Translations under genes and position numbers: made by a program
Sequence record: OQ626344
From: Escherichia phage S127 BCL3
DNA length: 64,000 nucleotides
Strand: one strand, 5' to 3'
The notes under the pieces: generated by a model
What the model was told of the DNA's origin: nothing
Seen by the model: only the letters and a program-made list of their open reading frames with translations
The model's database searches: none
In this document: one piece after another, positions 28,494 to 29,720 of the stretch
Layout: each line of letters starts with the position of its first letter
Numbering within the stretch: the stretch's first letter is position 1

Positions 28494-29720
28494 TTAAAAA
28501 GGAATGTCATCATCAAAGGCGTATTGTGCTGGATTCTGATCCATAGGGTCATCTTCCTCATTATCTACAGGAGGGGCGTCTACAGTGTTTTGCTGTGGAT
28601 CAGTTTCCTGTTTGGCAGCTTGAGGTTCTTGATGGTCAGTGGCTCCCGCACCGTTCTTGATCCAATCATACAACGGTTCAGCAAGATTAGTCAAGACATC
28701 TTTTGCTTCTGCAGTAATTGCTACTGCAAAATCGTCAACTTTCGTTTTCTTGTCAATACGGCGACAAGCGTTCAATACCGCATTACCAACACTGGCACCT
28801 ACTTCATCTTCAGTTCGGTTGGTGGCTTGAGCGTACTCTTTCTTAAGCTCAATGGTGACAACGTGTAGTGTTTTAGCCACGTCTAAAGGATTGTCTACCT
28901 TAAACCCGCGATCCAGGATGATTTGCAAAGCATTAATGCTATGCCCTGTTTCTACACCGATAGGATCATAAGAAGATTTACGCTTACCACCAGAGCCTTG
29001 AGTGCCGTTCTCTGCCTTGGGTGGGTAGGCTTTAAAACCGCTGATAATATTCCCGGTGTCTTTGTCAACAATAGCTGCAACACGACCACCTACCACCAGG
29101 TCTTTAAGCTGCTCATCAGAGACAACCATAGCACCTTCGCCAATCTTGTGATCATTGACAGTAACCACGTTACCAACAATCTGAGTCACATCACCATAGA
29201 TGCGTAAAACGTCCTGATTGGCATTCTGCTGAGGTTTCTGCTTCTGGCCTTGTGATTGTGTGCCTTGTTGCTGTTTTTGTTGCTGTGGAGCTGCTGGAGC
29301 CTCTCCTGCCCCCAACTTAACCATTTTAGCCAGTGAGCCTTTGTAGTAGGTCTTACCGTTATGCTCATTTGCCTTTAAAGGGATATTTACGATCCATCCT
29401 GGCGTTACTGTTTCCCACTTGTCATCAATTTTAACAGAGACGGAGTCTTGATGACCAGGCTTAAGCAGCTTATCACCCATGCTGATCCAAACTTCTTCAC
29501 CACCTTGGAGCAGGTTATCAGAGGAGTCCAGTTCAGAAATCAGTAAAGAGATGGTGTGGCTGGATTCAATTTTCTTACCTTGCCACACAGTGGTTTTAAT
29601 ACCTGTTGTAGGATCAGCACCTTTAATGGGCTTGATGCTAACACGTTTAATCATACCGTGAGCCAGTAAAACAGTTTCACGCGGATTCATCGGGTTGGCA
29701 AATTGTTGAATAACGCTCAT
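28494..29720 (-). CDS. protein with Q-rich linker and SSB-type C-terminal tail (...FDDDIPF)
   Basis: internal ATG at 29720 with CAAGGAGAC RBS overlapping upstream stop (ATAATG); last residues match E. coli SSB C-terminal tip; about 408 aa. Confidence 0.6.
   Translation of the reverse strand: MSVIQQFANPMNPRETVLLAHGMIKRVSIKPIKGADPTTGIKTTVWQGKKIESSHTISLLISELDSSDNLLQGGEEVWISMGDKLLKPGHQDSVSVKIDDKWETVTPGWIVNIPLKANEHNGKTYYKGSLAKMVKLGAGEAPAAPQQQKQQQGTQSQGQKQKPQQNANQDVLRIYGDVTQIVGNVVTVNDHKIGEGAMVVSDEQLKDLVVGGRVAAIVDKDTGNIISGFKAYPPKAENGTQGSGGKRKSSYDPIGVETGHSINALQIILDRGFKVDNPLDVAKTLHVVTIELKKEYAQATNRTEDEVGASVGNAVLNACRRIDKKTKVDDFAVAITAEAKDVLTNLAEPLYDWIKNGAGATDHQEPQAAKQETDPQQNTVDAPPVDNEEDDPMDQNPAQYAFDDDIPF

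What the first reader, a model, noticed from the sequence alone, without database searches (positions are those of the whole stretch)
28494..29720. 408-aa protein ending in the E. coli SSB C-terminal tip (DDDIPF)
The last residues FDDDIPF and the preceding PMD match the SSB tail that recruits host replication and repair proteins, and a Q-rich linker sits mid-protein. The protein is far longer than a canonical SSB and the rest does not obviously resemble an OB-fold SSB. It may be an atypical phage SSB, or a decoy that titrates the host SSB interactome. It is translationally coupled to the upstream 122-aa gene.
Basis: partly seen in the sequence, partly recalled or inferred. Interest (0 to 1): 0.55.

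Follow-up and report, generated by a model that had tools for sequence, protein, structure and literature searches.

The report
Unannotated phage SSB with bacterial-type tail
An rV5-like E. coli phage gene so far labelled "hypothetical" most likely encodes the phage's own single-stranded-DNA-binding protein: no sequence similarity to known SSBs, predicted OB folds, and the same DDDIPF tail tip that E. coli SSB uses to recruit partner proteins.

Summary
A 408-aa ORF on the minus strand (29720->28494) ends in ...AFDDDIPF*, has a Q-rich disordered linker, and overlaps the upstream gene by TAATG.

The window is a Vequintavirus (rV5/FV3-like) myophage. The gene lies about 3 kb downstream of the T7-like DNA polymerase and primase-helicase, on the same strand.

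The protein belongs to phrog_4477 ("unknown function") and has no Pfam or NCBIfam family. AlphaFold2 predicts:
- a basic N-terminal OB-type barrel;
- a second small OB-like barrel;
- a family-specific four-helix bundle;
- a disordered acidic tail.

Best reading: the phage's replicative SSB, a non-canonical family. No experiment supports this yet.

Two extras:
- The phage primase-helicase also ends in a conserved acidic ...TPF tail, as in the T7 gp2.5/gp4 pair.
- In rV5 and about 30 relatives, a homing-endonuclease cassette inserted at the stop codon adds 15 residues after IPF.

Novelty: new variant of a known kind. Interest is moderate.

The parts
28494..29720 (-). SSB-like gene, 408 aa plus stop (member of phrog_4477)
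   Evidence: Translation; phrog_4477 full length, E 2.6e-172; same CDS annotated as hypothetical in FV3 and about 115 phage records
29304..29720 (-). N-terminal beta domain, residues 1-139; predicted OB-type barrel; basic (pI 9.1)
29214..29303 (-). Q-rich disordered linker, residues 140-169 (13 Q of 30)
   Evidence: pLDDT 26-36; composition; weak compositional match to the E. coli SSB linker
29010..29213 (-). Middle small beta-barrel, residues 170-237, b1-b2-b3-helix-b4-b5 (minimal OB-like); accessory, present in only ~24% of family representatives
   Evidence: AF2 secondary structure, pLDDT 82-88; occupancy 0.24 in A3; short forms lack it
28974..29009 (-). Short basic G/S/K linker, residues 238-249
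   Evidence: pLDDT <50; pI 11.2
28647..28973 (-). Family-specific four-helix bundle, residues 250-358; the most conserved part of the family (D252, G255, G259, H260, N263, H286, G308, G312)
28497..28646 (-). Disordered acidic C-terminal tail, residues 359-408 (pI 4.05), ending in the tip YAFDDDIPF (28497-28523)
   Evidence: pLDDT 28-39; 14 D+E against 1 K+R; tail matches E. coli SSB 153-178 in a profile search; conserved across the family
28457..28478 (-). Intrinsic-terminator-like hairpin plus T-run, 16 nt after the stop codon
   Evidence: 9-bp stem, 7 GC pairs, ATTTTTGTAT; sequence
29728..29733 (-). AAGGAG Shine-Dalgarno, 7 nt upstream of the ATG, inside the end of the upstream ORF
   Evidence: Sequence read directly
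29720..30085 (-). Upstream 121-aa gene (phrog_7310, unknown function); its stop overlaps the SSB-like ATG (TAATG)
   Evidence: Homologs only in rV5-like phages, none annotated. Other clades have an unrelated small gene in this position
35745..37823 (-). T7 gp4-like primase-helicase, 692 aa, ending in an acidic ...GFEDDETPF* tail (tail codons 35748-35771); likely functional companion of the SSB-like tail
   Evidence: PF03796 DnaB_C and tail conserved in homologs down to about 42% identity; BLASTP to T7 gp4, E 4e-21
32909..35686 (-). Family-A DNA polymerase, 925 aa (T7 gp5-like); candidate docking partner of both tails (inferred)
   Evidence: BLASTP to T7 gp5, E 4e-19; FV3 annotation

Best explanation
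The gene most likely encodes the phage's own replicative single-stranded-DNA-binding protein. It belongs to a non-canonical family (phrog_4477) found in rV5-like, phi92-like and Phapecoctavirus-like large myophages.

Proposed mechanism (inferred):
- The basic N-terminal OB-type barrel binds ssDNA exposed at the phage replication fork. In the long forms the second small barrel may help.
- The conserved four-helix bundle mediates self-association or cooperativity, or contacts a replisome partner.
- Two disordered linkers give reach.
- The acidic tail ending in DDDIPF is the protein-recruitment handle. Because the tip matches the host SSB-Ct, it can in principle dock into the same pockets on host SSB-interacting proteins.
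- The phage's gp4-like primase-helicase carries a similar acidic ...TPF tail. By analogy with T7, where the gp2.5 and gp4 tails both bind the gp5 polymerase, the tail probably also couples the protein to the phage family-A polymerase.

Shown here: the sequence features, family-wide conservation, predicted folds and genomic context.
Inferred: ssDNA binding, oligomerisation and the identity of the tail's partners.
For: 1. Context. The gene sits about 3 kb downstream of the polymerase and primase-helicase, on the same strand, in the early/replication gene block. Short-form relatives sit about 1-2 kb downstream of the DNA polymerase gene in Phapecoctavirus, Justusliebigvirus and a Klebsiella phage.

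3. SSB-like charge layout. OB core pI 9.1, G/Q/P-rich disordered linkers, tail pI 4.05. Conserved aromatic and lysine residues lie in the OB domain.

4. Tail. About 135 of 148 representatives at 50% clustering end in an acidic run plus PF-type end. 30 end in exact DDDIPF and 9 in MDFDDDIPF. The 13 exceptions are mostly truncated fragments.

5. No other SSB found. tblastn with E. coli SSB finds only this tail in the window and nothing in FV3 15-133.6 kb. The FV3 RefSeq annotation lists none. The rV5 genome paper lists polymerase, ligase and two helicases but no SSB (PMC3606486).

6. T7-like replisome. The helicase resembles gp4 (E 4e-21) and the polymerase resembles gp5 (E 4e-19). The helicase tail is conserved. 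T7 gp2.5 ends ...EDGDF and gp4 ends ...SNDTDF. The gp2.5 tail binds the polymerase front basic patch (PMC12339929).
Against: - There is no experimental evidence of ssDNA binding for any family member.
- No sequence-level link to any known SSB family: Pfam, NCBIfam and PDB profiles hit only the tail.
- The most conserved domain, the helical bundle, has no counterpart in known SSBs and no assigned function.
- rV5 and about 30 related phages carry a 15-residue extension after IPF. A free C-terminal Phe therefore cannot be strictly required for viability. This sits awkwardly with a classical SSB-Ct mode of binding, which uses the terminal carboxylate (my own knowledge of ExoI/RecQ/PriA-SSB-Ct structures).
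- The T7 polymerase basic patch is only partly retained in the window polymerase.
- The absence of another SSB rests on annotation and a low-sensitivity tblastn search.
Confidence: 0.6

Rival explanations
1. Replisome or recombination accessory factor rather than the bulk SSB. For example a helicase-loader, mediator or annealing protein (RecO-like OB plus helical layout, or T4 gp59-like role) that uses its tail to dock onto the phage polymerase or helicase, while host SSB coats the phage ssDNA.
Against: RecO and loader proteins bind SSB tails rather than carry them (established knowledge). No Pfam RecO, gp59 or annealing-protein hit was found in 120 family members. The basic OB, disordered linker and acidic IPF tip layout is the SSB signature. 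Large lytic phages with their own polymerase and helicase usually encode an SSB (PMC4889955), and none other was found here.
Confidence: 0.2
2. Decoy or hijacker of the host SSB interactome. The protein's main role is to present a host-identical SSB-Ct tip that titrates or redirects host SSB-interacting proteins (ExoI, RecQ, PriA, RecO, Pol III chi and others) away from host DNA, with little or no ssDNA binding.
For: The tip is identical to E. coli SSB over 7 residues here and over 9-12 residues in some relatives. That is more similarity than the 'acidic plus aromatic' pattern that suffices for T7 gp2.5.
Against: A decoy would need only the tail. Yet two to three folded domains are conserved over about 250 representative clusters. 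The gene is embedded in the replication module. The tail is capped by a 15-residue extension in rV5 and many relatives without loss of the gene. D-D-D-[IL]-P-F is near-universal in bacterial SSBs (my own knowledge), so identity to the host tip is weak evidence for host-specific mimicry.
Confidence: 0.08
3. Protein of unrelated function, for example a regulator or structural/other OB-fold protein, whose tail similarity is convergent. In this reading the acidic PF tail serves only autoinhibition or a phage-specific contact.
For: There is no sequence homology to any characterised protein. OB folds are functionally promiscuous (one search lists tRNA synthetases, RuvA and the PilY2 protein).
Against: The replication-module synteny across three phage clades, the family-wide tail and the matching tail on the primase-helicase all point to DNA replication.
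Confidence: 0.1

Closest known systems
Bacterial SSB (E. coli SSB type; Pfam PF00436, TIGR00621)
   Same: Basic OB-fold core (predicted). Disordered G/Q/P-rich linker. C-terminal acidic tip with the same last 7 residues, FDDDIPF; relatives share up to EPPMDFDDDIPF.
   Different: No detectable sequence homology of the OB domain: TIGR00621 scores 12 bits against a cutoff of 54, on the tail only. The protein is 408 aa against 178. It has an extra small barrel, a four-helix bundle and a second linker. Oligomeric state is unknown.
Phage T7 gp2.5 (with gp4 and gp5)
   Same: A phage-specific OB-fold SSB with an acidic tail ending in Phe. It works in a replisome made of a family-A polymerase and a gp4-type primase-helicase whose own C-terminus is also acidic and ends in Phe. 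The same pairing of tails is seen here (DDDIPF and DDETPF), and the helicase and polymerase are true homologs of gp4 and gp5.
   Different: No sequence similarity to gp2.5 (BLASTP) and no DUF2815 Pfam hit. The tip is ...IPF (bacterial type), not ...GDF. The protein carries additional domains. Tail-polymerase binding is untested, and the polymerase basic patch is only partly conserved.
Phage N4 SSB / DUF669 and other 'hidden OB' viral SSBs (Kazlauskas et al. 2016, PMC4889955)
   Same: The same kind of case. The family is unrecognisable by sequence, has an acidic C-terminal tail, and occurs in phages lacking a known SSB. SSB function is inferred from a diverged OB fold.
   Different: A different family: no DUF669 hit in 120 members. 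It has a different domain architecture and a bacterial-type IPF tip.
RecO (recombination mediator)
   Different: RecO binds the SSB-Ct rather than carrying one. It has a zinc-binding domain and no acidic tail. No sequence or Pfam similarity.

Membership tests
phrog_4477 (PHROGs, unknown function) | Full-length match to the family HMM | tested here: met
   E 2.6e-172, residues 1-408 against profile 1-393 of 393. Short-form relatives match the same profile.
Bacterial SSB family (PF00436 / TIGR00621) | SSB-type OB domain recognised by the family HMM | tested here: not met
   No PF00436 hit for the window protein at E<=1. No SSB-type Pfam family is hit by 2 or more of 120 family members. TIGR00621 scores 12.2 bits against a cutoff of 53.95, covering only the C-terminal region. 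tblastn with E. coli SSB hits only the tail.
Bacterial SSB family (PF00436 / TIGR00621) | C-terminal acidic tip D-D-D-[IL]-P-F preceded by a disordered linker | tested here: met
   ...AFDDDIPF*. Tail pLDDT is below 40. Conserved in about 91% of representatives. Profile match to E. coli SSB residues 153-178.
Bacterial SSB family (PF00436 / TIGR00621) | Homotetramer (or dimer of two-OB chains) that binds ssDNA | not testable with these tools
   Needs biochemistry or multimer modelling.
OB-fold nucleic-acid-binding superfamily | Five-stranded closed beta-barrel structurally similar to known OB ssDNA binders | tested here: met
T7 gp2.5-like SSB (DUF2815) | Sequence or HMM similarity to gp2.5 | tested here: not met
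   BLASTP of gp2.5 against this protein gives no hit at E<=10. No DUF2815 Pfam hit. Only a weak Foldseek hit to a DUF2815 protein, E 9.7e-3.
T7 gp2.5-like SSB (DUF2815) | Acidic C-terminal tail ending in an aromatic residue, paired with a gp4-type helicase-primase bearing a similar tail and a family-A polymerase | tested here: met
T7 gp2.5-like SSB (DUF2815) | Tail binds a basic patch on the phage DNA polymerase | tested here: inconclusive
   T7 gp5 K587-R591 (KWKRR) aligns to a 6-residue gap plus GKKF in the window polymerase. Binding itself is not testable here.
N4 SSB / DUF669 | HMM match to DUF669 | tested here: not met
   No such Pfam hit for the window protein, and none among families hit by 2 or more of 120 members.
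RecO | RecO N-terminal OB plus helical plus zinc-finger domains recognised by Pfam; binds the SSB-Ct | tested here: not met
   No RecO Pfam hit. Structural similarity is limited to the OB domain. The protein carries an SSB-Ct-like tail instead of a pocket for one (inference).

The most novel reading that the evidence does not exclude
The protein may be a dual-purpose hub. It would coat phage ssDNA and, through a host-identical SSB-Ct tip, recruit or sequester the host's SSB-interacting enzymes onto phage DNA. At the same time, the matched acidic ...PF tails on this protein and on the primase-helicase would compete for one site on the phage polymerase. That would be a T7-like 'two-tail' replisome switch built from an unrelated SSB fold plus a new helical domain. 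The homing-endonuclease cassette that caps the tip in rV5 would then be a natural on/off variant of this interaction.
Probability: 0.25. Interest if true: 0.65.

Novelty: new variant of a known kind. Interest (0 to 1): 0.45.

Why it matters
rV5-like, phi92-like and Phapecoctavirus phages are widely used therapy and biocontrol candidates. No SSB was reported in the rV5 genome paper or annotated in the FV3 regions I checked. Assigning phrog_4477 as the SSB would complete their T7-like replisome (family-A polymerase, gp4-like primase-helicase, SSB, ligase).

It would also add a structurally new SSB architecture: a diverged OB, an optional second OB and a novel four-helix bundle.

Because the tip matches the host SSB-Ct, the protein gives a direct way to ask whether a lytic phage taps the host SSB interactome. 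The paired acidic ...PF tails on the SSB and the helicase allow a test of how general the T7 tail-to-polymerase coupling is. Natural capped (rV5) and uncapped (FV3, this window) variants provide a ready-made comparison.

Tried and rejected
- Plus-strand reading of the given coordinates: all stops. The gene is on the minus strand.
- The 457-aa TTG-start ORF: rejected in favour of ATG 29720 (Shine-Dalgarno, FV3 annotation).
- Sequence searches of the protein and of family profiles against Pfam, NCBIfam and PDB sequences: nothing beyond the tail. A cold-shock-domain hit at E 0.6 and an HMGB1 acidic-tail hit at E 0.015 are not meaningful.
- 'SSB' labels on short-form relatives in three GenBank records. 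In the PHROG and NCBIfam scans, these proteins match SSB models only over their C-terminal ~40-50 residues, so I did not count the labels as independent evidence.
- The idea that the upstream, translationally coupled gene is a conserved partner: rejected. Its homologs are confined to rV5-like phages. Other clades have an unrelated small gene there.
- The idea that the APIGLQY... extension is a functional peptide or degron: rejected in favour of its being the in-frame 5' leader (it contains GGGAGG 11 nt before the ATG) of an endonuclease VII-type homing cassette.
- Conservation of the T7 polymerase front basic patch: inconclusive.
- Profile-profile comparison with SSB or gp2.5 family alignments: not done.

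Full report
OBSERVATION

The coordinates are right, but the gene is on the minus strand. The plus-strand translation is broken by stops. The reverse strand gives a 408-aa ORF from ATG 29720 to TAA 28496-28494: MSVIQQF...DDPMDQNPAQYAFDDDIPF*.

- An AAGGAG Shine-Dalgarno lies 7 nt upstream of the ATG.
- The upstream ORF's TAA shares one base with the ATG (TAATG), so translational coupling is plausible. That ORF is 121 aa from ATG 30085, as annotated in FV3, or 136 aa from the first ATG.
- A terminator-like hairpin (28478-28457) follows the stop codon.
- Residues 140-169 hold 13 Q in 30.

The last seven residues equal the E. coli SSB tip. 'PMD' is present but displaced by a 9-residue insert. A six-frame scan finds only two ORF ends in the 64 kb window with an acidic ...PF* pattern, so the tail is not a chance feature.

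WHERE IT COMES FROM

The window is a Vequintavirus (rV5/FV3-like E. coli myophage, about 136 kb).

- 115 phage records match the gene at 90-98% nucleotide identity. In the listed records that carry annotation it is labelled 'hypothetical protein'.
- In FV3 it is FV3_00195. It lies on the same strand as, and a few kb downstream of, the primase-helicase (FV3_00210) and the DNA polymerase. In the window these are 37823-35745 and 35686-32909.

FAMILY

- The protein matches phrog_4477 ('unknown function') end to end, E 2.6e-172.
- It has no Pfam, NCBIfam or PDB sequence relative. The only similarity to SSB models is the C-terminal tail.
- A word-indexed search found 57 homologs.
- A full profile search of 1.84 billion representatives found 250 clusters.

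There are two architectures:
- a long form of about 345-430 aa, like this one;
- a more common short form of about 260-300 aa that lacks the middle domain. Examples are phi92 gp156, Phapecoctavirus and Justusliebigvirus proteins.

A scan of 120 diverse members against Pfam found no family hit by more than 5 members, and none of SSB type. Three GenBank records call short-form members 'SSB'. In PHROG and NCBIfam scans, these proteins match SSB models only over their C-terminal ~40-50 residues, so I do not count those labels as independent evidence.

PREDICTED STRUCTURE

AlphaFold2 on a 25-sequence alignment gave mean pLDDT 74.9, with structured parts at 80-96. The layout is:

| Residues | Feature |
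|---|---|
| 1-139 | all-beta domain |
| 140-169 | disordered Q-rich linker |
| 170-237 | five-stranded barrel with the OB order b1-b2-b3-helix-b4-b5 |
| 238-249 | short basic linker |
| 250-358 | four-helix bundle |
| 359-408 | disordered tail |

The tool gives no aligned positions, so domain assignment is my inference from aligned length. Hits aligned over 79-93 residues cannot fit the 68-residue middle domain, so they should involve the N-terminal domain. Hits of 55-68 residues at about 1.8 A rmsd (RPA, RuvA domain I, AspRS N-domain) are compatible with the small barrel.

Charge layout is SSB-like: OB core pI 9.1, tail pI 4.05. Family-wide conserved residues in the OB domain include H55, W78, K97, an aromatic at 102, K123 and Y126.

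THE TAIL

Among 148 representatives:

| C-terminal end | Count |
|---|---|
| [ILVM]PF | 105 |
| other PF | 8 |
| PW or PY | 5 |
| xDF or xAF | 7 |
| PF plus 1-2 residues | 7 |
| PF plus a 15-residue extension | 3 |
| none of these (mostly truncated fragments) | 13 |

In addition:
- 30 end in exact DDDIPF, 9 in MDFDDDIPF and 5 in PPMDFDDDIPF.
- The last 12 residues average 4.8 acidic and 0.08 basic residues.

The tail is therefore a defining, selected feature of the family. It follows the bacterial SSB-Ct consensus rather than merely being 'acidic plus aromatic'.

IS THERE ANOTHER SSB?

- tblastn with E. coli SSB finds only this tail in the window and nothing in FV3 15-133.6 kb.
- The FV3 RefSeq annotation has no SSB.
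- The rV5 genome paper lists polymerase, ligase and two helicases and never mentions an SSB (PMC3606486).
- Kazlauskas et al. note that OB-fold SSBs often escape detection. They used the same logic (acidic tail, no other SSB, weak OB signals) to assign DUF669/N4-type SSBs (PMC4889955).

A SECOND TAIL

The window's primase-helicase ends ...HVPGFEDDETPF*. Its homologs, down to about 42% identity, nearly all end in an acidic run plus [TSCE]PF.

The helicase is a true gp4 homolog (E 4e-21) and the polymerase a gp5 homolog (E 4e-19). T7 gp2.5 and gp4 end ...EDGDF and ...SNDTDF.

In T7 the acidic gp2.5 tail binds the polymerase front basic patch, and its terminal Phe is essential (PMC12339929 and the references cited there). 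That the gp4 tail binds the polymerase likewise is my own knowledge of the Richardson laboratory's work.

So this phage reproduces the T7 'two acidic tails ending in Phe' arrangement with an unrelated SSB candidate. In FV3 these are the only two ORFs with such ends in the 15-133.6 kb I scanned. Whether the phage polymerase keeps a matching basic patch is unclear: KWKRR aligns to a gap plus GKKF.

CAPPED TAILS

Sixteen family members and some helicases carry APIGLQY..H.I..L after PF.

- In contig L005 this extension overlaps by 11 nt the start of a 204-aa endonuclease VII/HNH-type gene (phrog_1035, E 7.6e-27) that is absent from the window.
- The extension DNA contains GGGAGG 11 nt before that gene's ATG.
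- It is therefore the in-frame 5' leader of a homing-endonuclease cassette inserted exactly at the stop codon.
- rV5 itself has it: ORF214 ends ...DFCDDIPFAPVGLQYGKSRIHAL*, and ORF213 is the overlapping endonuclease VII.
- 32 phage records match leader plus endonuclease nearly full length. At least one weaker match (65% of the query), in Cronobacter phage GAP31, lies after the helicase gene.

This shows that a free C-terminal Phe is not strictly required for viability. That tempers any strict SSB-Ct-pocket model and offers a natural comparison between capped and uncapped phages.

INTERPRETATION

Most likely (about 0.6): the phage's replicative SSB, from a non-canonical family. The OB domain or domains bind ssDNA. 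The helical bundle mediates oligomerisation, cooperativity or a partner contact. The tail acts as a recruitment handle for the phage polymerase and possibly for host SSB-interacting proteins.

Rivals:
- an accessory, mediator or loader factor with a RecO-like OB-plus-helical layout (about 0.2);
- a pure decoy of the host interactome (about 0.08);
- an unrelated function (about 0.1).

All functional steps are inferred. Nothing was tested biochemically.

NOVELTY AND INTEREST

I found no paper describing this family. Acidic-tailed, sequence-orphan phage SSBs are a known kind (gp2.5, gp32, N4/DUF669). This one is a new variant, with a diverged OB, an optional second OB, a novel helical domain and a bacterial-type IPF tip.

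It is useful for annotating a widely used phage group. It is mildly surprising for the host-identical tip, the paired helicase tail and the endonuclease-capped variants. It is not a categorically new system. Interest: 0.45.

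Noticed in passing
window 35745-37823 (-), tail codons 35748-35771: The gp4-like primase-helicase ends in ...GFEDDETPF*. Homologs down to about 42% identity keep an acidic run plus [TSCE]PF. This parallels the SSB-like tail and the T7 gp2.5/gp4 pair.
   Followed up: yes
L005:2889-3542; L010 (rV5) 1503-2145; absent from window downstream of 28494: In rV5 and about 30 relatives, an endonuclease VII/HNH-type homing cassette is inserted exactly at the stop codon of the SSB-like gene. Its 5' leader, which contains the GGGAGG ribosome-binding site, is read in frame and adds about 15 residues (APVGLQYGKSRIHAL) after ...IPF. 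The same leader follows ...TPF of the helicase in other phages (P0220, P0226, GAP31).
   Followed up: yes
window 32909-35686 (-) versus L001 5180-8799 (FV3): The family-A DNA polymerase is one intact 925-aa ORF in the window. In FV3 it is annotated as two pieces (809 aa and 118 aa) separated by an HNH endonuclease gene. The rV5 paper gives 775 aa. This looks like a mobile-element insertion polymorphism in the pol gene.
   Followed up: no
phage records MG0656xx: About 20 records named 'Campylobacter phage' with host C. jejuni match this E. coli rV5-like gene closely: 93-94% nucleotide identity and 96% at the protein level. The host labels look doubtful.
   Followed up: no
L002:2563-3450, L003:2791-3738, L004:2620-3498: Short-form family members in Phapecoctavirus, Justusliebigvirus and a Klebsiella phage are labelled 'single-stranded DNA-binding protein' in GenBank. 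In PHROG and NCBIfam scans they match SSB models only over their C-terminal ~40-50 residues. Each sits 1-2 kb downstream of the DNA polymerase and is preceded by an unrelated ~130-aa gene (phrog_16560).
   Followed up: partly
window 30117-30145 (-): A 13-bp-stem hairpin overlaps the first ATG (30130) of the 136-aa version of the upstream ORF. This favours the downstream ATG at 30085 as the real start, and the hairpin may end the preceding transcription unit.
   Followed up: no
window 37813-38607, 39881-41224, 41624-42994 (-): Upstream of the primase-helicase lie a 264-aa ORF matching FV3's annotated DNA methyltransferase, a 447-aa ORF matching its adenine methyltransferase, and a 456-aa ORF. 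I read the 456-aa ORF as the PIF1/RecD-like helicase from its P-loop motif and the rV5 paper. This makes one contiguous replication and DNA-modification block on the minus strand.
   Followed up: no
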